From IMG/VR virus record IMGVR_UViG_3300045988_105971, positions 1-31,189 of that record: 31,189 bases of DNA. One strand, given 5' to 3'. The notes below the pieces were generated by a model. It was not told the DNA's origin, searched no databases, and saw nothing but the letters and a program-made list of their open reading frames with translations. The position numbers and the translations under genes were made by a program. Each line of letters opens with the position of its first letter. Position 1 is the stretch's first letter. Positions 1 to 31,189 of the stretch are shown here, piece by piece. This DNA comes from a virus.

Positions 1-55
1 CACCGCTGCGACCATCATCACGGGCGCGGGCACGTTCATCGGCGCCTGCATCGGC
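1..55. repeat. Terminal direct repeat identical to 31135..31189 (circular-contig closure overlap)
   Basis: The first 55 nt of the window are letter-for-letter identical to the last 55 nt. The length matches a typical assembler k-mer, so the molecule closes into a circle. Confidence 0.9.
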
Positions 56-1481: not shown

Positions 1482-2297
1482 TTAGTACATGGTCATGTCA
1501 ATATTGAGCCTCTTGCAGATGTTGACCATTCGCTGCATGTCCCTATCCGAGGCGGTGAGCGGAACTCTTACAGTCGTCGAAGAGCCCCTTGGTGCCGAGG
1601 GCTGCGTGCCATGCTCTGTTGGCTGGCACGGTCCCCTGAATACCAATCCATGTTTCTTTGCCGATGAAGCATGCCTCAGCTTGCCCTCGTCGTCGAACCC
1701 GATGCCATGGCCATCGTAGTTGCCCTCGAACCATGCCTTGCCATTACGGTTGAGCGAGCTTTTCTTTGCCAGTCCGACGACTTCCATGTGGCTATCGCCC
1801 TGACGTAAAATGCAGTACGCATCCGCACCGTCGATCCGGCACCTTACCGCGATGTCACGCCCATTGACGTCTGGCTTCATGCTGGCAATGATGTCGAGCA
1901 ACCTGGTCTCGTGGCTGGGGAAGCCGCTGCTGCACCATGCGTCGTCAACGGGCCCGGGCTCACAGCATGGCTGTTGTTCGGCGCCGCCGTCAAGCTGGCT
2001 GTCTGCACTCAACGCCTCTGCCCACCCGTCTGGATTGTTGTCCGTGACGGCGTATCCCATTCTCCTGGACATGAAGCTGACCGCGCCGATGGACGAGAGG
2101 GCTCCCAGGATGGTGGATGCCTGGTTGCGTGGGATCCCCATATCTTCTTGCATCTCGCCAGAGCGGAACGCCCCATCTCCGTCAGCCGACCACGCTATCC
2201 ATTCGATGGTGTTACGAAGCACGGTGACTGGGATGCCCCTGTGAGACAAAGGCCCGAAGAGCTGCCCGTTCTTTATGTAGAAATCCTTGTTTTGCAT
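1482..2297 (-). CDS. Hypothetical 271-aa cargo (moron) protein, no recognisable domain
   Basis: Begins 6 nt after the stop of the XRE regulator, so it looks like a two-gene operon. G+C is visibly lower than the phage backbone. No signal peptide or TM segment. I found no HExxH, GIY-YIG, Fic or recombinase motif. Confidence 0.6.
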   Translation of the reverse strand: MQNKDFYIKNGQLFGPLSHRGIPVTVLRNTIEWIAWSADGDGAFRSGEMQEDMGIPRNQASTILGALSSIGAVSFMSRRMGYAVTDNNPDGWAEALSADSQLDGGAEQQPCCEPGPVDDAWCSSGFPSHETRLLDIIASMKPDVNGRDIAVRCRIDGADAYCILRQGDSHMEVVGLAKKSSLNRNGKAWFEGNYDGHGIGFDDEGKLRHASSAKKHGLVFRGPCQPTEHGTQPSAPRGSSTTVRVPLTASDRDMQRMVNICKRLNIDMTMY

Positions 2298-2303
2298 ATG
2301 CGG

Positions 2304-2741
2304 TTACCCCTGTTCTTCGCTCACTGTATCCATCAGCCCAGGGAACCCGAACTCCACGTCGAATCCCATCTCCATGAGCATATGTCCTGCGAGCCTGGCG
2401 TTGGCGTTGGCCATCTGCCATTTGGCGGGATCCTCTTCGGGATGAGCACGGGCGTACTCCACCGCATTGCCCCAGTAGCTCAGCCGCACCACCTTCGGTG
2501 TGCCGCGCTCGTCCTCCATGCGCTCAACGGCAGTGATAACCTCGTCAATCGCGCGTATCTGATCTTCACGCGCCTTGATGAGCAGATCCCATGCGAATTC
2601 GCGCGGGGCGTATGCCGTGTTCTCGGCATCCTCCCAGCGCCTAACGCTTCGCGCATCGATGCCGCATTCCTTCGCCACGTGCGCCTGCGTCATGCCCACG
2701 GTTTCGCGAAGTGCGCGGAAGTTTGCTATTGTGTGCTCCAT
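2304..2741 (-). CDS. XRE-family helix-turn-helix transcriptional regulator (candidate repressor)
   Basis: N-terminal HTH_3-like segment LRETVGMTQAHVAKECGIDARSVRRWE. 145 aa. Transcribed divergently from the Cro/Xis-like gene. Confidence 0.75.
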   Translation of the reverse strand: MEHTIANFRALRETVGMTQAHVAKECGIDARSVRRWEDAENTAYAPREFAWDLLIKAREDQIRAIDEVITAVERMEDERGTPKVVRLSYWGNAVEYARAHPEEDPAKWQMANANARLAGHMLMEMGFDVEFGFPGLMDTVSEEQG

Positions 2742-3525: not shown

Positions 3526-3741
3526 ATGGAGCTGACGATGCCCAAGAGGCCGATTGGCAAGCCGATGTACACGGTGCAGGAGGTCGCCCAGCTGGCGGGC
3601 GTCAGCAAGGGAACCGTATACGAGGAGATCAAGCGCGGGAACCTCCAGGCGGTGGTCCGCAGGGGATGCACCCAGGGATACCGCATCAGGAGCGAGGCGC
3701 TGGACAGATGGATCGACGAGCAGTGGACGCCCGTCGTGTAG
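3526..3741 (+). CDS. HTH_17 (excisionase/MerR-like) DNA-binding protein; candidate Cro/Xis-like early regulator
   Basis: YTVQEVAQLAGVSKGTVYEEIKRGNLQAV is a classic excisionase-family HTH. RBS ggaaaggag sits upstream of the ATG. First gene of the rightward early operon. Confidence 0.7.
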   Translation: MELTMPKRPIGKPMYTVQEVAQLAGVSKGTVYEEIKRGNLQAVVRRGCTQGYRIRSEALDRWIDEQWTPVV

Positions 3742-4248: not shown

Positions 4249-4874
4249 TGGGACGCGAATGGACGACAAGGGAGATAGCGTACCTGCGCGAGAGCGCGGG
4301 CAGGGTGCCCCTGCGCGAGATCCAGCTGCACCTGCGCCGAAGCGCCGAGAGCGTGCGCTGGCAGGCGAAGAAGCTCGGCCTTTCTGTGCGGGTCCCGGCA
4401 TGGCGGCTCCACTGGTGCGACGAGTGCGCCACATGGCGCACGAGGATCCAGGCCAACGGGCGCTGCCGAGTGTGCCAGGCGCGGGCGAACATCGAGCGCG
4501 AGGAGGGCCGCATCGCCGACGCCCTGCGCGGGCTGCCGCTCGAGCGGAGGCTCGCCTTCGAGCGCGGAGAGTCGAAGAAGGGGCGCCAGAAGGCAATGGG
4601 GCCTCCTCCGGTGAGGCAACGGGTCCCGGAGGACGCGACGCCGTACCAGCGGTCCAGGGCCGAGCAGGACTACCTGGCTGCTATGGAGCACTGGCAATGG
4701 GAGCGGCTGCAGATGCGCTACGACGCGCAGAGGCAGCGGCTCAAGGACATAAAGGACATCGGAAGGAAGGAAAAGCATGCAACTGAAGGAGATCAGCCTG
4801 GAGGACGTGTTCCCCAGCAAGGACAACCCACGCCAGGACTTCGGGGACATCGAGGCGCTGGCGGAGAGCCTTGA
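4248..4874 (+). CDS. Hypothetical protein with Cys4 zinc-finger (CDEC...CRVC) and basic N-terminal DNA-binding-like segment
   Basis: GTG start overlapping the RusA stop. The last 98 nt overlap the ParB-like gene in another frame. Confidence 0.45.
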   Translation: MGREWTTREIAYLRESAGRVPLREIQLHLRRSAESVRWQAKKLGLSVRVPAWRLHWCDECATWRTRIQANGRCRVCQARANIEREEGRIADALRGLPLERRLAFERGESKKGRQKAMGPPPVRQRVPEDATPYQRSRAEQDYLAAMEHWQWERLQMRYDAQRQRLKDIKDIGRKEKHATEGDQPGGRVPQQGQPTPGLRGHRGAGGEP

Positions 4875-5985
4875 GGGCGGCCAGCCCAACATCCCGATCA
4901 TCGTCGCCCAGGACGGCGGAATCTACACGATCATCGACGGCGAGCGTCGCTACCGCGCGATGAAGGTGCTCGGCACCAAGCGCACCCAGGCGCTGGTGGC
5001 GGAGGACCAGAGCGACGCGGACGTGATGGTGGCGATGGTCGCCGCCGACAACAAGAAGCAGCTCACGCCGGTGGAACTCTCCCGCGGGATCCAGCAGGCG
5101 CTCCACTTCGCGGACGTGGAGCGCGTCGAGAAGGTGTCGGGGCGCAAGAGCCTGGGGCGCGTGAAGCGAGCTCGGGCGAAGGTGCAGGACGCCGCAGACG
5201 ACATGAGCCTGGACAGGCTCCTAGCCATCGACGAGCTGAGCTTCAGCCGCGCCGCGGTCGACCAGCTGACCAACTGCCGAGAGGCCGAGTGGAGGCGCGT
5301 CTACGACCGCATCAAGCAGGACCTGGAGACGGAGCGCAGGACCCAGGAGCTCGACGACGAGCTGGAGGCGGCGGGCATCGCGAAGGCAATGCGGATGCCG
5401 GACGGCGACTGGGGGTACTTCGCGCAATGCGGCCAGGGCGACGTGCAGAAGCTGGTCGAGCGCGCCGACGGCGCGGAGCTGGTCGCGGTCGGCACGGGGC
5501 TGTACCGCAGCGTGTACCGCAGGACCGACGAGCAGGTAAGCCGCGCCGAGGACGAGCGCCGGGAGCGCATCGACGAGGTGTCGCGTGCGCTTGAGGAGTC
5601 CGCCGAGCGCCGCGCGAAGTGGCTGGGCGAGCTTGTCAACGGCTTAGACGACAGCAAGGCGGGGCCAATCCGCTTCGCGGGCAGCAAGGCCGTGCGCCTG
5701 TGCGCCGAGCGCTTCGAGGAGCGCTTCGGGCGCGAGGTGGAGCGCTTCGACGAGATGTGCGGCACCAGCACCGGCAAGTGCATCAACGAGCTGACGGTGG
5801 CGCTTGGGCTTCCCGGCACGCCCGACGCGCGGAGCCTGGTCGACGGCAAGGCGCCGCTGTACCAGGAGGACATGGCGAAGCAGGGCAAGGCGCTGTTCGC
5901 CGCGATGCTCGCCGACGGCTACGAGCCCGAGGGCGAGGAGGAGGCCGAGCTGTTCAGGCTCATGGAAGAGATGGAGGTGGACTAG
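4777..5985 (+). CDS. ParB-like nuclease domain (ParB/Srx N-terminal) protein
   Basis: N-terminal ParBc signature (DVFPSKDNPRQDFGDIEALAESL ... YTIIDGERRYRAMKVLG). 402 aa. Common in phage recombination/replication modules. Confidence 0.7.
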   Translation: MQLKEISLEDVFPSKDNPRQDFGDIEALAESLEGGQPNIPIIVAQDGGIYTIIDGERRYRAMKVLGTKRTQALVAEDQSDADVMVAMVAADNKKQLTPVELSRGIQQALHFADVERVEKVSGRKSLGRVKRARAKVQDAADDMSLDRLLAIDELSFSRAAVDQLTNCREAEWRRVYDRIKQDLETERRTQELDDELEAAGIAKAMRMPDGDWGYFAQCGQGDVQKLVERADGAELVAVGTGLYRSVYRRTDEQVSRAEDERRERIDEVSRALEESAERRAKWLGELVNGLDDSKAGPIRFAGSKAVRLCAERFEERFGREVERFDEMCGTSTGKCINELTVALGLPGTPDARSLVDGKAPLYQEDMAKQGKALFAAMLADGYEPEGEEEAELFRLMEEMEVD

Positions 5986-6885
5986 ATGGGGGAGAGCGTG
6001 GAAGCGAAGGCGCTGGACACCAATCTTGTCGTGGTGAAGGTCGACCCGCAGAAGGTGACCGACCTCATCCTCGGCATGGACGCCGAGGTCAGGAAGTGCA
6101 ACGCCATCGTGGCGGAGTTCGAGGGCTCGACCCTGGACGGTGCCGCAGACGAGGACGTGAAGCGGCTGAGCCAGGACCTCAGCCGCCACTACAAAGACGC
6201 GGACGAGGCGCGCAAGCGGTTCAAGCGCGAGTGGCAGGAGCCGCAGAAGGCGGTGGAGGCGGCCTTCAAGGATGCCCTCGACCCCATGAAGGAGCTCGTC
6301 GACGCGTACAAGGGCGAGCTTGACGCGCGCAACGCAGCCAAGCGCCAGGAGCGATACGAGCTGATGTGCGAGTTCTACGAGGCCGACGCGCCGACGCTCG
6401 CCGAGCTGGTGCCGATCGAGCGTTTCGGAATCGAGCGCGACAAGATGAGCGTGGCCAAGAGCTGGAGCCTGGTCAAGGAGCAGGAGCGCCTACACGCGCA
6501 GCTCGTTCAGGCGCTCAACGACTGGGCGGCGCTCAAGACGGGCCACCTATCCTTCGAGCAGGAGGCGGAGGCGGAGTTCTTCCGCACTCTCAGCCTGCAG
6601 GCGGCGCTCAACCTCAACGCGATGAGGGAAGAGGAGCAGGCGCAGATCGACAAGCTCAACGCAGAGATGGGCGTTGCGCCAGAGCCAGAGCCGACGCCCG
6701 AGCAAGAGCGAGAGCCGCAGCCCGAGCCTGAGCAGGCGGCAGCACAGCCGTCGGAGCCGGTTGGGCGCTACTGCATCGTCTGCGACATGACCCCCGCCCA
6801 GAAGCACAGGCTGCTCGGGTACATGAGGGCGGCAGGCATACACGGGCACATCAACACCATCAGGAAGGAGAACGCAAATGGGTAA
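5986..6885 (+). CDS. Hypothetical phage protein (coiled-coil, possibly DUF1351-like) immediately upstream of RecT
   Basis: 299 aa. Acidic and coiled-coil. The ATG overlaps the ParB-like stop. A C-terminal Pro/Glu-rich linker precedes a short CxxC-containing tail. Confidence 0.5.
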   Translation: MGESVEAKALDTNLVVVKVDPQKVTDLILGMDAEVRKCNAIVAEFEGSTLDGAADEDVKRLSQDLSRHYKDADEARKRFKREWQEPQKAVEAAFKDALDPMKELVDAYKGELDARNAAKRQERYELMCEFYEADAPTLAELVPIERFGIERDKMSVAKSWSLVKEQERLHAQLVQALNDWAALKTGHLSFEQEAEAEFFRTLSLQAALNLNAMREEEQAQIDKLNAEMGVAPEPEPTPEQEREPQPEPEQAAAQPSEPVGRYCIVCDMTPAQKHRLLGYMRAAGIHGHINTIRKENANG

Positions 6886-7690
6886 CGCGATAGTGCAGGC
6901 CCAGCCTCAGCTGACATTGGCCGAGCAGATGCAGTACGCGAACACGGTGTGCAAGGGGTCCCTTGTGCCGAAGGCGTACCAGAACAGCGCGGCGAACGTG
7001 CTGATCGCCATGGACTTCGGGCGCTCCATGGGGCTGTCCCCGGCAGAGAGCCTGTACAGAATCACGGTCATCAACGGCAAGCCAACTGCGAGCGCCGAGC
7101 TCATCGCCGCCAACGTCCGCCGCGCCGGGCACAAGCTTCGCGTCAAGAAGGACGAGCAGGCCAAGAAGGCCACGGTCGAGATCGTCCGAGCAGACGACCC
7201 CGACTACACGTTCAGCGTGACATGGGACATGGCCAAGGCGCAGCAGGCGCAGCTCAGCGGCAAGGAGAACTGGAAGAAGTACCCCATGGCCATGCTCACG
7301 GCGCGCGCCATCACGGAGTGCGCACGGGACGCGTGCCCCGAGGCGCTTTACGGAGTGGTCTACACGGGCGAGGAGATGGAGGGCGGCTTCGGCTCAGCCT
7401 CCGACGGCTACCAGGTGGAGGTGCTCGACGATCAGCCTCAGCCTACGCAGCCGCAGCAGCCCCAGCAGACGAAGGAGCAGTACCAGGCTGGGATCCAGCT
7501 CGGAGAGTGGCAGAGCCGCGCAGGCGCCGCCATGCGGCGCGCCAACGCGCTCGGCTTCCAGATCGCCGAGATAAAGGCGCAGGCCCGCGAGGAGTACGGC
7601 GTGGACATCGCCGACATGGGCGTGCCGCAGCTCCAGGCGTTCTGCGCGGAGCTGGAGGGCACCCTGGCGGCGTTCGAGGCGGCGGAATGA
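6878..7690 (+). CDS. recT: RecT-family single-strand annealing recombinase
   Basis: Motifs NVLIAMDFG..MGLSP..LYRITVINGKPT..SAELIAANVRRAGH...KYPMAMLTARAITECAR are characteristic of RecT. 270 aa. Confidence 0.75.
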   Translation: MGNAIVQAQPQLTLAEQMQYANTVCKGSLVPKAYQNSAANVLIAMDFGRSMGLSPAESLYRITVINGKPTASAELIAANVRRAGHKLRVKKDEQAKKATVEIVRADDPDYTFSVTWDMAKAQQAQLSGKENWKKYPMAMLTARAITECARDACPEALYGVVYTGEEMEGGFGSASDGYQVEVLDDQPQPTQPQQPQQTKEQYQAGIQLGEWQSRAGAAMRRANALGFQIAEIKAQAREEYGVDIADMGVPQLQAFCAELEGTLAAFEAAE

Positions 7691-24231: not shown

Positions 24232-27200
24232 GTGTCCGACGGAAAGGTCGTAATCCAGATAACCGCCGATCCCTCCGACTACGAGAAGGCGATCGGCTCG
24301 CTCGGCGCGAGCACTCAGAAGTCGCTCGCCACGGCGATCAAGGGCAGCTTCATCGGCAACCTGTTCGCCCAGGCGTTCAGCAAGGCGGCGGGGGTCATCG
24401 CCAACTCGATGGACTCCGCCATCAGCCGCGTCGACACGATGAAGAACTTCCCGCGCGTCATGCAGTCGCTCGGCTACAGCGCCGACGACGCGGCAAGTTC
24501 CATCCAGAAGATGAGCGACCACCTGACGGGGCTGCCCACGCGCCTGGACTCCATGACCTCCAGCGTGCAGAAGATCGTCCCGACCGTGAAGGACGTGGGC
24601 AAGGCCACCGACATCATGCTCTCGTTCAACGACGCGCTGCTCGCGGGCGGAGCCAGCACACAGGTTCAGGAGGCGGCGCTCGAGCAGTTCAGCCAGGTGC
24701 TCGCCAAGGGAAAGCCCGAGCTTGAGGACTGGCGAAGCATCCAGGCCGCGATGCCTGGCCAGCTCGATCAGGTGGCGCAGTCGATGCTGGGGCAGGGCAA
24801 GAGCGCCAACGACCTGTACGAGGCGCTGAAGCACGGCGACGTGACCATGAGCGACTTCTGCGACGCGCTGGTACGCCTGGACAAGGAGGGCGGCAACGGC
24901 TTCGCGTCGTTCTCCGAGCAGGCGAAGCTCGGCACGCAGGGCATAGCCACCAGCTTCAGCAACCTCGAGAACTCGGTCGTCAAGGGCCTTGCGTCCGTAC
25001 TCGACGCTGTGGGCTCTGAGAACATCGTCGGCGTGATGGAGGGCGCGAACAAGGCGATCACGGGAGTGTTCAAGCAGGTCGCCGCCTCCGTGTCAGGCGC
25101 AATGCCCACCGTTAAGCAGATGGGCTCGGCACTGCTCCAGATGGTGCCGCAGATAGTAGCCGCCGTTGCGGGCTTCTACGGCTTCAAGTCGGTGGGCGGC
25201 TACGTCGCAGATGCTTCTGCGCGCCTGGGGCAGCTCGGCAAGGGCGCGAGCACCGCCGCCAAGGCATCGGCGATCCTGGGCAAGAGCATCAGCCCCGTGG
25301 GAATCGCGCTCACCGTGGCAGCCGCCGCTGTGGGGCTCATCGCGGGGGCCGTCACCGACTACGTGACCAAGGCGGAGAACGCCAAGAAGGCCACCGAGGG
25401 GCTCAACCAGGCAACCGCCGACACCGTTGGGCTGCAAAGCTACTCCGGCACGTTGGGCGACGTTGCGCAGAAGGCGGAGGACGCGCACGTCAGCGTCGAC
25501 GACCTGAACGCATCGACGGCGCAGCACGTCGATGCAATGAACAGGAACACGCAGGCCGCGCAGAGCCAGATAAGCGAGCTGACCGCCGCGCAGAGCATCA
25601 TCACGTCGCTTGCGGGGCAGACTGACCTTTCCGCCGAGAGCCAGGGCCGCCTGGAATGGGCGCTCAAGACGGTGAACGATCAGTTCGGGCTGAGCATCAG
25701 CGCCGCAGACGTAGCCGCCAACAAGTACAAGGACCAGGACGGCAACGCAAAGAGCCTGAATGACTCCATCAACGAACTTATCGAGGCCAAGAAGCACGAG
25801 GCGCAGATGGACGCGATGCAGGCGAACTACAGCGAAGTGCTGAAGCAGAAGACCGATGCCGAGAGCGCCTACGCCGATGCCGTAGTGCACCGAAGCGACC
25901 GCATCAAGGAGGCCGAGGACCAGCTCGCCGCCAAGTTCGCCGACACCACCACGGCCGAGGACCGCCAGCGCATGGCCACCCAGCAGGTGGACGAGGAGAT
26001 AGCGGGGCTGAAGGGCAACGTCGACAACGCCAGCAAGAGCCTCGATGACATTTCAGCAGCCATGGGCGACTCCGCCAAGTCGGCAAGCGAGAGCGCGGAC
26101 GCGTTCGACCAGTGGGGCAACAGCCTCGACGGGACCTTCACGCAGATACTCCAGAAGAAACTGGGCGCGAACGGCCTGGGCCAGCTGAAGGACGACCTCC
26201 GCGACCTCGGCGTGTCGGTCGAGGACCTTGGCAACCTCACGGGCGACCAGCTGCAGGAGCTGGCGCTCGCGTACGACGGCACCTCCGCATCCATCGTAGG
26301 CAAGCTAGCCGAATGGGGCGTCGGCATGGACGACGCGAAGAGGAAGGCCGCCGAGGGCGCGGCAGGGATCCGCGACGCGCTGAACGGGATGAACCTCGGC
26401 GAGGTCTTCTCGTCCGTGAACGTCGACATCTCCAGCTTCAGCCAGGCGCTTGCCGAGGCAGGCGTCTCCGTCGAGGAGCTCAACAGCATCGGCAGCGAGA
26501 ACCTGTCGGCGCTGGCCCAGAGCTGCAACGGCAACACCGACCAGATGATAGCCGCCATAACCGCATTCAACGGCACGCCGATGCTCGACAAGAACAGCGG
26601 CGTGTACATCTACGACACCGAGCTGACGGACGCCCAGGGGAACGTCTACACATGGAACGGCACCGCGCTGGTCGACAAGAACGGCACCGCCATCGTCCAG
26701 GACGCCAGCCTGACCGACGCCCAGGGCCACAACTACGTCTGGAACGGCACCGCGCTGGTGTCGAAGCAGGCGAGCGCGAACGTCAACGGCAACGCTTCTA
26801 ACGGCCAGGCGAAAGGGCAGGTCGACAACACCAACAGCTCCGTCGACAGGATGCACGACAAGAGCGTCAACGCGAGCGTGAGCGGCAACGCCGCCGACGG
26901 AAGCGCGGCCAGAAGCATCTGGGACACGGTCAGCGCGATCGGCAGCCTTGTCGGCAAGAGCATCACCAACACGGTCACCAACGTCGTGCACAGCATCACG
27001 GGCAACGCGAAGGGCGGCATCAGGCCACACGCGGACGGCGGCTTCGTGCCGCGCTTCCATGCCCACGGCGCAATTGCGACCAAGGCGGTCCCGCTCGACA
27101 TCGTGGGCGAGGACGGGGCGGAGGCCATCGTGCCTCTGACGAACGAGCGGTACGCCAGGCCGTTCGCGCAGCTGATCGCGCGCGAGGTCGACGGCATGTC

Positions 27201-29242: not shown

Positions 29243-30025
29243 ATGGCAGAGCTTATCACCGGGCGCGGCGGGACTGACCACGTCGACAGCGAGGACTTCG
29301 GGGCGCTCAACGCCGTGACCCTAGGTGACGGAACGTACATCCTGAGCGGATGCTCCATGGCCATGAAGACGGCGAGCACGCTGCACATCGCGGCGGGCGA
29401 GCTGCTGATGCAGGGCAGGCACGTCCGCATCAAGGGCGCTGGCGAGGACATCGACGTCGCAGTGGGCACCACCGGCTACAACCGCAACGACCTTGTGGCC
29501 CTGCACTACAAGCAGGAGGGCGGCATCGAGAGCGTATCCGTAGAGGTCGTTGCCGGCACCCCGACCACAGGCGCCGCCTCCGATCCTGAGCTTGGCGGCG
29601 GGTCGATCCTGAACGGCGATGCCGAGGCGTATGTCGCGATCGCCCGCGTCCCGATCGTCGGGCTTGCACCGTCAGAGCCTGTCGTCCTGGTTGGTGGGCT
29701 GAAGTCAAACAGCCAGCTCGCCGAGAGCATCAGCGCCATCCGGGATTCCGTATCCCGACCGCTGTTCAAGACGGTGAAATACACAAGCCCAAATTCAGAT
29801 GTTGGATCTGGCAATGTTCTTGAATACAGCGGAACGCTCAAAAATTTCGCAGGATACACGCCCGTTGGAATCGTGGAGACGAACACCAATCACGATTGGT
29901 CTTTCGGCTTGATGAGGGCAACGCTTAACGGAGATGGCACGTTCACCTGCACATGGATGAACTTCAACAAGAACACGTGGAGAGGCTCGATCGGCTACGC
30001 GACCGTGCTTTACATCCGATCGTGA
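29243..30025 (+). CDS. Receptor-binding (tail fibre/spike) protein with exchangeable C-terminal tip A
   Basis: 260 aa. From the IRDSVS linker at 29738-29755 the sequence drops sharply in G+C. The linker is encoded by a repeat found twice more downstream. Confidence 0.55.
   Translation: MAELITGRGGTDHVDSEDFGALNAVTLGDGTYILSGCSMAMKTASTLHIAAGELLMQGRHVRIKGAGEDIDVAVGTTGYNRNDLVALHYKQEGGIESVSVEVVAGTPTTGAASDPELGGGSILNGDAEAYVAIARVPIVGLAPSEPVVLVGGLKSNSQLAESISAIRDSVSRPLFKTVKYTSPNSDVGSGNVLEYSGTLKNFAGYTPVGIVETNTNHDWSFGLMRATLNGDGTFTCTWMNFNKNTWRGSIGYATVLYIRS
29744..29756 (+). repeat. Direct repeat copy 1 gattccgtatccc (encodes DSVS linker, frame of RBP gene)
   Basis: Exact 13-mer shared with 30024-30036 and 30373-30385. 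Confidence 0.9.
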
Positions 30026-30371
30026 TTCCGTATCCCAATTTAAGACCGAAGCAAAAGACTACTGGACAGTGACGACGCTCCCCGATGGTTTGCGAATGGC
30101 TTGGACGACAGACGGAACCGGGAGAGTTGCGCCAAACTCTGGATCGACCAAAGAGATTCCTCTCCCTTTCAAGGTGAAAGCAGGAAACGCTATATCCGTT
30201 CTGCATTCTCAGACCGATATAGGCAGATCAGCGCAAAGCGGCTTTACGCAGCTCACGGTCAAGGTTACGGCGACGGCTGACTCTGTCTTTGTAAATGCGT
30301 ACAACGACGACAACACTATGACGCTGAGCACGAGTGTGTCTATTCTCGTGATCGAACGTGCGGTGTATTAG
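29961..30371 (+). other. Silent alternative RBP tip cassette B (open frame with no start codon before the DSVS linker)
   Basis: The frame opens after TGA at 29958-29960. It reads ...RDSVSQFKTEAKDYWTVTTLPDG... to TAG at 30369-30371. The first possible start is an internal GTG at 30069. Low G+C. Confidence 0.45.
30022..30037 (+). repeat. Direct repeat copy 2 gtgattccgtatccca
   Basis: 16-mer identical to 30371-30386. Contains the RBP stop codon TGA (30023-30025). Confidence 0.9.
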
Positions 30372-30576
30372 TGATTCCGTATCCCAGCTTTCCGAGTCCA
30401 AGGCTGTAACGCTCCAATCAGGCATTACGTACGAGGTCAGCGGAAATGTCGTCATCGTCGACTACGTGACGGTGGTCAGCGGCATAGGCGGATCGTACGC
30501 GACGCTGACGTTCGCACCCGACGCGGCAGTCGGCATCGAGTCCGCGACCGTGCTCATCGAGCGCGTGTGCGGGTAA
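30358..30576 (+). CDS. Alternative RBP tip cassette C (72 aa, GTG start two codons after an in-frame stop, no RBS)
   Basis: Reads MRCISDSVSQLSESKAVTLQSGITYEVSG... The beta-rich C-terminus is typical of fibre tips. Confidence 0.4.
   Translation: MRCISDSVSQLSESKAVTLQSGITYEVSGNVVIVDYVTVVSGIGGSYATLTFAPDAAVGIESATVLIERVCG
30371..30386 (+). repeat. Direct repeat copy 3 gtgattccgtatccca
   Basis: Identical to 30022-30037. Confidence 0.9.
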
Positions 30577-30610
30577 AAGCAGCCGGGTGACCCCTGGGGC
30601 ATAAAGAGAA

Positions 30611-30649
30611 ACGGGCACGTTGCCTTTTGGCGCGTGCCCGTTTTTTCTT
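30611..30649 (+). terminator. Rho-independent terminator after tail/RBP operon
   Basis: acgggcacg (30611-30619) and cgtgcccgt (30633-30641) stem followed by ttttttctt. Confidence 0.65.
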
Positions 30650-30998: not shown

Positions 30999-31189
30999 AG
31001 ATGGAAGAAGAGAACAAGTACCTGCTGCCCGACAAGGCGTACGACGTGCTGAAATGGGTCGGGCTGGTCGTATGCCCAGCGCTCGCGACGCTGACGCTCA
31101 CCGTCGGCAACGCCGTTGGCTGGGCCGACACCGTCACCGCTGCGACCATCATCACGGGCGCGGGCACGTTCATCGGCGCCTGCATCGGC
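30999..31189 (+). CDS. Holin, N-terminal part (continues across the circular junction to position 88)
   Basis: MEEENKYLLPDKAYDVLKWVGLVVCPALATLTLTVGNAVGW... in frame with 2..88 through the 55-bp overlap. Confidence 0.6.
31135..31189. repeat. Terminal direct repeat identical to 1..55
   Basis: Exact 55-nt identity with the window start. Confidence 0.9.

What the first reader, a model, noticed from the sequence alone, without database searches (positions are those of the whole stretch)
29738..30576. Receptor-binding gene followed by two silent alternative tip cassettes, each behind the same 13-16-bp direct repeat encoding a DSVS linker
The RBP gene (29243..30025) contains gattccgtatccc at 29744-29756, encoding D-S-V-S. 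The same 13-mer recurs at 30024-30036 and 30373-30385, extended to the 16-mer gtgattccgtatccca in copies 2 and 3. In each case D-S-V-S is read in the frame of a different downstream open frame. Tip A is the current C-terminus. Tip B is an open frame from 29961 to 30371 with no start codon upstream of its linker. Tip C runs 30358..30576 and begins 2 codons after a stop. The distances between repeat copies are 280 and 629 bp. A deletion between copy 1 and copy 2 or 3 would therefore fuse the conserved RBP body in-frame to tip B or tip C. All three tips are far lower in G+C than the backbone, which points to horizontally acquired host-specificity modules. The phage carries its own RecT, which can act on very short homologies. 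This looks like a promoterless cassette array for host-range switching by short-homology recombination, an arrangement I do not recognise as a described system. It differs from DGRs, which use a reverse transcriptase and templated mutagenesis, and from invertase shufflons, which use inverted repeats; neither is present here.
Basis: partly seen in the sequence, partly recalled or inferred. Interest (0 to 1): 0.85.

Follow-up and report, generated by a model that had tools for sequence, protein, structure and literature searches.

The report
Recombinase-less remnant of Rin shufflon
The three repeats are the crossover sites of an already described tail-tip switching system (the Rin shufflon of gut Actinobacteria phages), but this phage has lost the recombinase gene and the inverted cassettes, leaving a fixed receptor-binding gene followed by one intact silent tip and one truncated tip.

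Summary
The sequence observation is real. GATTCCGTATCCC occurs three times in direct orientation (29744, 30024, 30373), each time read as D-S-V-S in the frame of the downstream open frame. It is not a new system. The 13-mer contains the putative rix crossover site (ttccgtat) reported for the Rin tyrosine-invertase shufflon of Eggerthella lenta prophages. In public contigs the same core sits at the body/tip junction of many receptor-binding proteins, usually with inverted copies and an adjacent Rin gene. Close relatives of this phage carry the same RBP body fused at this site to 17 tip families. Some have inverted cassettes, and one (L125) has an intact rin. The window is a complete circular 31-kb genome with no recombinase and no inverted site. 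"Tip C" is a deletion scar: 30 codons of a 95-aa cassette fused to the 3' end of a small downstream ORF. That deletion (3.0 kb measured against L135) removed the rest of the locus. Tip B is an intact silent cassette under purifying selection, but it is never seen in the expressed position. Best reading: a frozen, decayed Rin shufflon. RecT-driven switching has no support. Action of a Rin supplied in trans is not excluded.

The parts
29243..30025 (+). Expressed receptor-binding protein gene (Rc::RvA, 260 aa).
   Evidence: ORF. PHROG 13141/9994 match residues 1-170 only. The AF2 model has pLDDT 85, and the best PDB matches are the lactococcal phage p2 and 1358 RBPs. 238 homologs were found.
29243..29743 (+). 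Rc: the constant N-terminal body (167 aa). Its neck helix (residues 156-169) runs into the rix-encoded D-S-V-S.
   Evidence: 93-99 % aa identity to many proteins that differ completely after DSVS. Secondary structure.
29742..29756 (+). rix copy 1, Rc-type (GGGATTCCGTATCCC). It encodes G-D-S-V-S in the RBP frame.
   Evidence: The same 15-mer sits at the body/tip junction of many unrelated Rc bodies. It contains the E. lenta rix ttccgtat.
29744..30025 (+). Tip A (RvA), the currently expressed C-terminal beta-sandwich head. G+C is 0.50.
   Evidence: The tip-A family is found in 27 full-length homologs.
30022..30036 (+). rix copy 2, cassette-type (GTGATTCCGTATCCC). Its TGA is the stop codon of tip A.
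30024..30371 (+). Tip B (RvB): an intact silent cassette of 115 codons from DSVS to the TAG stop, with no start codon at the linker.
   Evidence: Homologous cassettes occur in Rin-bearing loci L050 and L130-L133. It is full-length relative to them, with pN 0.23 against pS 0.83. It is never found fused to an Rc.
30371..30385 (+). rix copy 3, cassette-type (GTGATTCCGTATCCC).
30373..30460 (+). Truncated 5' part (about 30 codons) of the 'QLSESK' cassette. That cassette is 95 aa long where it is intact.
   Evidence: 87-93 % nt identity to L124 (expressed), L125 and L001 (inverted), and L127 and L135 (direct). The protein matches QLSESK tips only over residues 1-30.
30453..30576 (+). 3' part (about 38 codons plus the stop) of a small pre-holin ORF ('ORF-Z', 68 aa in L007 9390-9596). 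It is joined to the truncated cassette across a short imperfect microhomology (ATCGTCGA, about 30453-30461), which marks the deletion junction.
   Evidence: 76 % nt identity by blastn to L007, L002, L129 and L135 immediately upstream of their holin genes, and about 80 % in an ungapped comparison with L007; alignment. There is no match to any RBP tip.
30606..30646 (+). Strong stem-loop followed by a U-run, a likely terminator closing the tail-gene operon.
   Evidence: RNA fold of -36.8 kcal/mol, z-score -6.0. The simple terminator scan did not report it.

Best explanation
The locus is the decayed remnant of a Rin-type shufflon.

In an intact Rin shufflon, a constant RBP body (Rc) ends in a short asymmetric crossover site (rix). 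A tandem array of promoterless C-terminal tip cassettes (Rv) follows, each preceded by rix. An adjacent armless tyrosine recombinase (Rin) inverts DNA between the Rc site and any oppositely oriented site, which fuses a new tip in frame. Runs of direct sites after Rc are normal intermediate states of such arrays.

In this phage a deletion runs from codon ~30 of the third cassette to codon ~27 of a small ORF next to the holin gene. It measures 3.0 kb against the closest comparable relative, L135. It removed every inverted cassette, an accessory module that includes a response regulator, and rin itself if rin was still present. What remains is Rc::tipA (expressed), tip B (intact but silent) and a cassette/ORF-Z fusion scar ('tip C'), all on the tail operon transcript upstream of a terminator.

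With no recombinase and no inverted partner site in the complete 31-kb genome, the RBP allele is fixed.

Shown: the identity of the site, the cassettes, the deletion junction, the absence of any recombinase, and the same layout in an independent assembly.

Inferred: the strand-exchange chemistry (crossover presumably within the asymmetric TTCCGTA centre), and that no switching now occurs.
For: 1. The 13-mer contains ttccgtat, the repeat proposed as rix in E. lenta Rin shufflons. It is 9/11 identical to the Bifidobacterium rix TTCCCTAACCC.

2. In IMG/VR the exact 15-mer G[GT]GATTCCGTATCCC lies in frame (L-G/R-D-S-V-S) at the junction of many different RBP bodies and tips, often with inverted copies.

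3. 43 loci carry a Rin homolog (40-70 % identity to L050 Rin) next to the array. Rin has Phage_int_SAM_3 and Phage_integrase domains. 192 distinct Rin-associated sites give the core G-N-A-TTCCGTATCCC with random flanks.

4. The constraint is at DNA level. GAT makes up 6.8 % of Asp codons and GTA 5.1 % of Val codons in this genome, so the probability of this spelling is 2e-4 per site.

5. The same Rc (94-97 % aa identity) is fused at the site to at least 8 tips in nine related contigs and to 17 tip families among 120 homologs. The same cassettes occur silent in either orientation: L124, L125, L001 and L135 have inverted sites.

6. L125, whose tail genes are 95 % nt identical, has an intact rin next to its last inverted site.

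7. Tip C consists of the cassette 5' end plus the ORF-Z 3' end. L135 shows the undeleted state: Rc::tipA, a full QLSESK cassette, an inverted cassette, the response-regulator module, ORF-Z, then holin.

8. The window is circular, with a 55-bp terminal overlap. It has no Rin homolog (best E = 0.15) and no recombinase domain in any scanned ORF. It has no inverted rix, even at 2-3 mismatches.

9. L134, an independent assembly, is 99.99 % identical over 10.8 kb, including the array.
Against: Rin-mediated inversion has never been shown biochemically. Both published descriptions call Rin and rix putative.

Tip B is still intact, so the decay is recent or the cassette is still used.

Several relatives have also lost rin (L135, L129, L126, L002/L007), yet the lineage shows very high tip diversity. 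That diversity could mean recombination is supplied in trans rather than lost.

Consensus assemblies cannot exclude minority deletion variants.

Whether rin was still present when the deletion happened is unknown, because L135 already lacks it.
Confidence: 0.85

Rival explanations
1. Orphan rix array that is still active in trans. When the phage replicates in a cell carrying a Rin-encoding prophage, that Rin acts on the three direct sites. The outcome would be deletion (Rc::tipB) or exchange of cassettes with the resident prophage.
For: Rin-bearing loci with the identical core are common: 43 loci, including Eggerthellaceae and Collinsella MAGs. Several relatives lack rin, yet the lineage carries 17 tip families on one Rc. 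Cassettes 94-97 % nt identical are shared with L050, whose Rc is only 28 % aa identical. PMC6109161 proposes a trans-acting invertase for a second bifidophage locus.
Against: Long runs of direct rix sites persist next to intact rin genes, for example L050 with 10, L087 with 5 and L109 with 4. This argues that Rin, like the R64 shufflon recombinase Rci (own knowledge), does not efficiently recombine direct sites. No Rc::tipB junction was found in any collection. Two independent assemblies are identical.
Confidence: 0.1
2. One reading: a purpose-built direct-repeat cassette array, switched by the phage's own RecT through 13-16-bp homology deletions.
For: The in-frame geometry is real. A RecT-like ORF (6878-7690) and an SSB are present.
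Against: The repeat is a site-specific recombination site conserved across unrelated genes, not a lineage-specific homology. Tip C is a deletion scar that could not form an RBP head. Deletion would be irreversible. No fusion variants were found. The RecT match is below the Pfam cut-off. Homology of 13-16 bp is far shorter than the homologies used in RecT/Red-type recombineering (own knowledge).
Confidence: 0.03
3. Assembly artefact: a metagenome assembler chained cassettes from a mixed shufflon population into a false tandem array.
For: Shufflon populations are heterogeneous and hard to assemble, and the window is a metagenomic contig.
Against: The repeats (13-16 bp) and the junction microhomology (about 8 bp) are shorter than assembler k-mers. 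An independent ENA assembly reproduces the region at 99.99 % identity over 10.8 kb. The contig closes into a circle with coherent gene order.
Confidence: 0.02

Closest known systems
Rin shufflon of Eggerthella lenta clade-1 prophages (Buttimer et al. 2022, PMC8778435)
   Same: The same crossover repeat (ttccgtat lies within GATTCCGTATCCC). The same Rc / tandem Rv organisation upstream of the lysis genes. A high-G+C Coriobacteriia context: one homolog is annotated from an Eggerthellaceae MAG.
   Different: This genome has no rin gene and no inverted site, and one cassette is truncated by a deletion. The conserved core defined here (13-15 bp, G-N-A-TTCCGTATCCC) is longer than the 8 bp reported.
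Rin shufflon of Bifidobacterium prophages Bb423phi1, Bl157phi1 and Bl30698phi1 (Mavrich et al. 2018, PMC6109161)
   Same: A constant N-terminus (168 aa there, 167 aa plus DSVS here) with tips of 95-115 aa, an Rc fold like the lactococcal phage 1358 RBP, direct rix sites within and just after the expressed gene, and an armless tyrosine recombinase in intact relatives.
   Different: The rix sequence differs (TTCCCTAACCC against TTCCGTATCCC). In this genome the recombinase and the inverted cassettes have been deleted.
R64 plasmid shufflon (Rci tyrosine recombinase, sfx sites)
   Same: A multi-cassette C-terminal exchange driven by a tyrosine recombinase at short asymmetric sites. Direct sites are tolerated without deletion (own knowledge).
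   Different: The target is the PilV adhesin of a conjugative pilus, not a phage RBP, and the site sequence is unrelated. Membership was not tested here.
Serine-invertase tail-fibre switches (Gin of Mu, Cin of P1, Min of p15B)
   Same: Host-range switching by swapping tail-fibre C-termini.
   Different: They use serine recombinases with about 26-bp sites and an enhancer. No resolvase domain or such site occurs here or in the relatives.

Membership tests
Rin-type (tyrosine invertase) RBP shufflon | A constant RBP N-terminal segment (Rc) that ends at the crossover site. | tested here: met
   Rc 29243-29743 is 93-99 % identical to many proteins that diverge exactly after DSVS. The RBP fold was confirmed.
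Rin-type (tyrosine invertase) RBP shufflon | Tandem promoterless C-terminal cassettes (Rv), each preceded by the same short asymmetric repeat. | tested here: met
   Tip B is an intact cassette with homologs in Rin loci. The third cassette is present only as a 30-codon stump.
Rin-type (tyrosine invertase) RBP shufflon | The repeat matches the published rix (E. lenta ttccgtat; Bifidobacterium TTCCCTAACCC). | tested here: met
   All three copies contain TTCCGTAT. The published sequences were read.
Rin-type (tyrosine invertase) RBP shufflon | At least one rix site in inverted orientation relative to the Rc site. | tested here: not met
   No inverted copy in the complete genome at up to 2-3 mismatches. 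Inverted sites are present in relatives L124, L125, L001 and L135.
Rin-type (tyrosine invertase) RBP shufflon | An adjacent armless tyrosine recombinase gene (rin). | tested here: not met
   No Rin homolog by tblastn (best E = 0.15), and no Phage_integrase or resolvase domain in any scanned ORF. Relative L125 has an intact rin. L129, L126 and probably L002/L007 (much weaker match) keep only N-terminal remnants.
Rin-type (tyrosine invertase) RBP shufflon | Inversion variants observed within a population or between isolates. | tested here: inconclusive
   Seen between relatives and for the tip-B-family cassette in L130/L131 against L132. For this genome the only second assembly is identical. Raw reads are not available here.
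Diversity-generating retroelement | A reverse transcriptase plus a template-repeat / variable-repeat pair. | tested here: not met
   No RT domain in the scanned ORFs. The three tips are not near-identical repeats.
Serine-invertase tail-fibre switch (Gin/Cin/Min) | A resolvase-family invertase and about 26-bp inverted crossover sites. | tested here: not met
   No resolvase domain. The recombinase next to homologous arrays belongs to the tyrosine family.

The most novel reading that the evidence does not exclude
Recombinase-less rix arrays such as this one may not be dead. The shared rix core could work as a community-wide universal joint, so that Rin supplied in trans by a co-resident prophage excises, captures or swaps tip cassettes between unrelated Coriobacteriia phages, much as an integron handles its cassettes. 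That would explain three observations: one Rc body carries 17 tip families, near-identical cassettes sit behind Rc bodies only 28 % identical, and rin is lost repeatedly without loss of the sites.
Probability: 0.12. Interest if true: 0.6.

Novelty: new member of a known kind. Interest (0 to 1): 0.25.

Why it matters
The finding does not reveal a new host-range switching mechanism. It places this phage within the Rin shufflon family and shows what a decayed shufflon looks like, so that similar direct-repeat 'cassette arrays' are not mistaken for a new system.

Four by-products may be useful to specialists:
- A longer definition of the E. lenta-type rix core: G-N-A-TTCCGTATCCC, coding the end of the RBP neck helix.
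- Evidence that the site is widespread in gut Coriobacteriia phages, including contigs of about 130 kb and a Collinsella MAG.
- Evidence that rin is lost repeatedly and independently within one phage lineage.
- Evidence that cassettes move between phages with unrelated RBP bodies.

The last two points make the question of recombination in trans at orphan sites experimentally testable.

Tried and rejected
**Chance repeat.** Rejected by shuffles and by codon usage.

**Independent small genes or chaperones for tips B and C.** No Pfam or PHROG family matched. Tip B has no start codon at the linker, and its homologs are shufflon cassettes. Tip C is a chimera.

**Translational recoding, bypassing or splicing between the repeats.** Considered and dropped, because the same site is flanked by a recombinase and by inverted copies elsewhere.

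**A hidden recombinase in the window.**
- tblastn with L050 Rin at E up to 100 found nothing credible.
- Pfam and PHROG scans of all ORFs of about 140 aa or more found none.

**Genome collection scan with the Rc body.** It found no relative, so the host could not be taken from an isolate genome. The only taxonomic hints are an Eggerthellaceae MAG annotation and a Collinsella MAG for another Rc type.

**Searches for an expressed Rc::tipB fusion.**
- The protein search with tip B gave 2 hits, both short silent ORFs.
- Tip clustering of 120 RBP homologs showed no tip-B fusion.
- Junction-pattern scans of viral and genome contigs hit only an unrelated tip that also starts Q-F-K.

**Sequence-profile search of the PDB.** It gave nothing useful; the fold search was needed.

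**Simple terminator scan.** It missed the hairpin after tip C, which was confirmed by folding.

**Literature.** No paper in the library describes rin-less or direct-only Rin arrays.

Full report
**1. Observation**

The 13-mer GATTCCGTATCCC occurs exactly three times on the + strand, at 29744, 30024 and 30373. The only other match at up to 2 mismatches is an unrelated site at 3675. No dinucleotide-preserving shuffle reached the observed count.

Copy 1 lies in the 260-aa ORF 29243-30025 and encodes residues 168-171, D-S-V-S. Copies 2 and 3 are read as D-S-V-S in the two other phases, and each phase matches the downstream open frame. Copies 2 and 3 share GTGATTCCGTATCCCA; copy 1 reads GGGATTCCGTATCCCG. 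The 280-bp and 629-bp spacings would give in-frame fusions.

G+C is 0.665 for the body, 0.50 for tip A and 0.51 for tip B. Tip C is 0.61 against 0.63 for the genome, so the claim that all three tips are low in G+C holds only partly.

**2. The gene is a receptor-binding protein**

The ORF follows a 1064-aa tape-measure protein, a Dit-like protein and a minor tail protein. PHROG families 13141 and 9994 match only residues 1-170.

I predicted the structure from an alignment of 30 full-length homologs (mean pLDDT 85). The model has three parts:
- a beta-rich body;
- a helix at residues 156-169 that ends at D-S-V-S;
- a separate beta-sandwich at residues 172-259.

Its best matches among solved structures are the RBPs of lactococcal phages p2 (2wzp, 2bsd; E about 3e-5) and 1358 (4l92; E about 1e-4). 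The repeat therefore encodes the neck/head boundary.

**3. What the repeat is**

Some single hits are noise. In most loci, however, the motif is in frame as ...L-G/R-D-S-V-S at the junction between diverse RBP bodies and diverse tips. Many loci hold several copies in both orientations. L050, for example, has one + copy in the RBP and a tandem array of minus-strand copies, each followed by a tip-like frame. One L050 cassette is a homolog of the window's tip B.

Next to the L050 array lies a 299-aa tyrosine-recombinase-like ORF. Homologs at 40-70 % identity sit next to the arrays in 43 loci. They carry Phage_int_SAM_3 and Phage_integrase domains.

Two papers describe this system:
- Mavrich et al. 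2018 (PMC6109161) described the Rin shufflon of Bifidobacterium prophages: Rc, tandem Rv cassettes, the rix site TTCCCTAACCC, and an armless tyrosine invertase.
- Buttimer et al. 2022 (PMC8778435) described the same system in Eggerthella lenta prophages, with the repeat 5'-ttccgtat-3' as the putative rix.

The window's 13-mer contains that octamer.

Across 192 distinct Rin-associated sites the conserved core is G-N-A-TTCCGTATCCC, and the flanks are random. The constraint acts on the DNA. GAT is 6.8 % of Asp codons and GTA 5.1 % of Val codons in this genome, so D-S-V-S would be spelled this way with probability 2e-4 per site.

The Rc copy reads GGGA-TTCCGTA-TCCC, which is short inverted arms around an asymmetric centre. 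This is what one expects of a tyrosine-recombinase core site (inference). In cassette copies the left arm is GTGA, whose TGA supplies the stop codon of the preceding cassette.

**4. State of the locus in this phage**

The window has a 55-bp exact terminal overlap, and its gene order closes on itself: holins at the end, endolysin at the start. It is therefore a complete circular assembly of about 31.1 kb. An independent contig shows the same order.

The genome has no recombinase and no inverted site:
- No Rin homolog (best tblastn E = 0.15).
- No integrase or resolvase domain in any ORF of about 140 aa or more.
- No inverted rix, even at 2-3 mismatches.

**5. Relatives show how this state arose**

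Nine contigs carry the same Rc at 94-97 % aa identity. In them Rc is fused at rix to at least eight different tips, and the same cassettes recur silent in either orientation. Among the 120 best protein homologs, 17 tip families are attached to this body.

| Locus | State of the shufflon |
|---|---|
| L125 (175-kb contig, tail genes 95 % nt identical) | Two inverted cassettes and an intact rin next to the last inverted site |
| L129, L126 (and probably L002/L007, weak match) | Only an N-terminal rin fragment, joined antisense to a + rix |
| L135 (Rc::tipA 95 % identical) | Rc::tipA, rix(+), a full 95-aa QLSESK cassette, a convergent inverted cassette with rix(-), then a response-regulator module, ORF-Z and holin; no rin |

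The window's tip C is a chimera. It matches the QLSESK cassette only from 30373 to about 30460: 87-93 % nt identity, and 93-97 % aa identity over 30 residues. From about 30453 to the stop at 30576 it matches the 3' part of ORF-Z, which is 68 aa in L007 (9390-9596) and lies just before the holin. The two parts meet in an imperfect microhomology, ATCGTCGA. The last 38 residues match no RBP tip.

Tip C is therefore the scar of a deletion, 3.0 kb measured against L135. The deletion removed:
- the rest of the cassette;
- the inverted cassette(s);
- rin, if it was still present;
- the accessory module.

L134, an independent ENA assembly, is 99.99 % identical over 10.8 kb, including all three sites. 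This excludes an assembly artefact.

**6. Tip B**

Tip B is full-length relative to its homologs in Rin-bearing loci (115 aa against 113-114 aa). It shows purifying selection: pN 0.23 against pS 0.83 with the L130 cassette, and dN/dS about 0.18 with the L050 cassette.

Its closest homolog, P0002, sits in classical Rin shufflons. It is found in opposite orientations relative to the lysis genes in different samples.

No tip-B-family cassette was found fused to an Rc:
- not in the protein database;
- not by junction-pattern scans.

**7. Mechanism and rivals**

The best-supported reading is a frozen, decayed Rin shufflon (confidence 0.85). Rc::tipA is the only expressed allele. Tip B is a recently silenced or stranded cassette. 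Tip C is a scar. All three lie on the tail operon transcript upstream of a strong hairpin terminator.

*The RecT model (about 0.03).* Its weaknesses:
- The repeat is a conserved site-specific recombination site, not a lineage-specific homology.
- One of the two proposed products would be a non-functional chimera.
- The RecT match is below the Pfam cut-off.
- No fusion variant exists in any collection.

*Rin supplied in trans (about 0.1).* This remains possible. Rin-positive prophages with the same core are common. rin has been lost repeatedly in this lineage despite very high tip diversity. Cassettes 94-97 % nt identical are shared with L050, whose Rc is only 28 % aa identical. Against it, long runs of direct sites persist next to intact rin genes, which suggests that Rin, like Rci of R64 (own knowledge), avoids recombination between direct sites.

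**8. Verdict**

The sequence observation is largely correct, but the interpretation as a new system is not. This is a new, degenerate member of a known kind. It scores low on surprise, with modest value in four points: the extended rix definition, the breadth of the system, the repeated loss of rin, and the testable question of recombination in trans at orphan sites.

Noticed in passing
window 1-55 and 31135-31189; whole window: A 55-bp exact terminal overlap marks a complete circular assembly of about 31.1 kb. The genome has no integrase. It has an HTH repressor-like gene (2304-2741, minus strand), a ParB_N protein (4777-5985), RusA, DUF1351, a RecT-like ORF, SSB and dUTPase. It may be a non-integrating or episomal temperate phage, or a virulent derivative. 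A close relative (L125) sits in a 175-kb contig.
   Followed up: partly
L125 7190-8470; L007 7194-9596; L135 6443-8809: Relatives carry an accessory module between the shufflon and the holin. It comprises an OmpR-type response regulator (Response_reg + Trans_reg_C) and 3-4 ORFs of unknown function, including a Q-rich 150-aa protein and a Gly/Cys-rich 212-aa protein. The whole module is deleted in the window.
   Followed up: partly
L129 618-845 (-); L126 ~1927-2025 (-); L002 ~4994-5038 (-): rin has decayed independently in several relatives. Only the first 20-50 codons remain, joined antisense directly to a + rix site (the L002/L007 match is weak). The apparent last 'cassette' (DSVSLEVLKPNLEFTEKGG...) is therefore the antisense of a rin stump. 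L135 lacks rin altogether but keeps an inverted cassette.
   Followed up: partly
L125 4502-4513: In the only relative with an intact rin, the Rc-internal site is mutated (GATTCCGTATAC, encoding D-S-V-Y). It is fused to a longer tip of a different kind (P0106 carries PF21939). This may be another way of locking the allele.
   Followed up: no
L031, L052, L060, L078, L081, L084, L098, L099, L110 (contigs of about 125-130 kb): The same rix core and a Rin homolog (about 46 % identity) occur in very large viral contigs. There the rin-proximal site is preceded by a conserved 29-nt leader, GTCTAAAATAAGGGCTATAAGCTAACTGG. Some of these loci also hold a second, more distant tyrosine recombinase.
   Followed up: no
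L050 6100-9550 against L124-L129: Tip cassettes are 94-97 % nt identical between phages whose Rc bodies are only 28 % aa identical. This indicates recent horizontal exchange of cassettes bounded by rix.
   Followed up: partly
L136 (CABRLT010000145.1, uncultured Collinsella sp. MAG): A Rin homolog plus five rix sites (four + and one -) with the identical core. This extends the E. lenta-type rix to Collinsella.
   Followed up: no
window 26569-26759 (within the tape-measure gene): Two overlapping 104-nt segments offset by 87 nt are about 75 % identical, which points to a short internal tandem repeat in the tape-measure protein. It was seen only as secondary BLAST hits.
   Followed up: no
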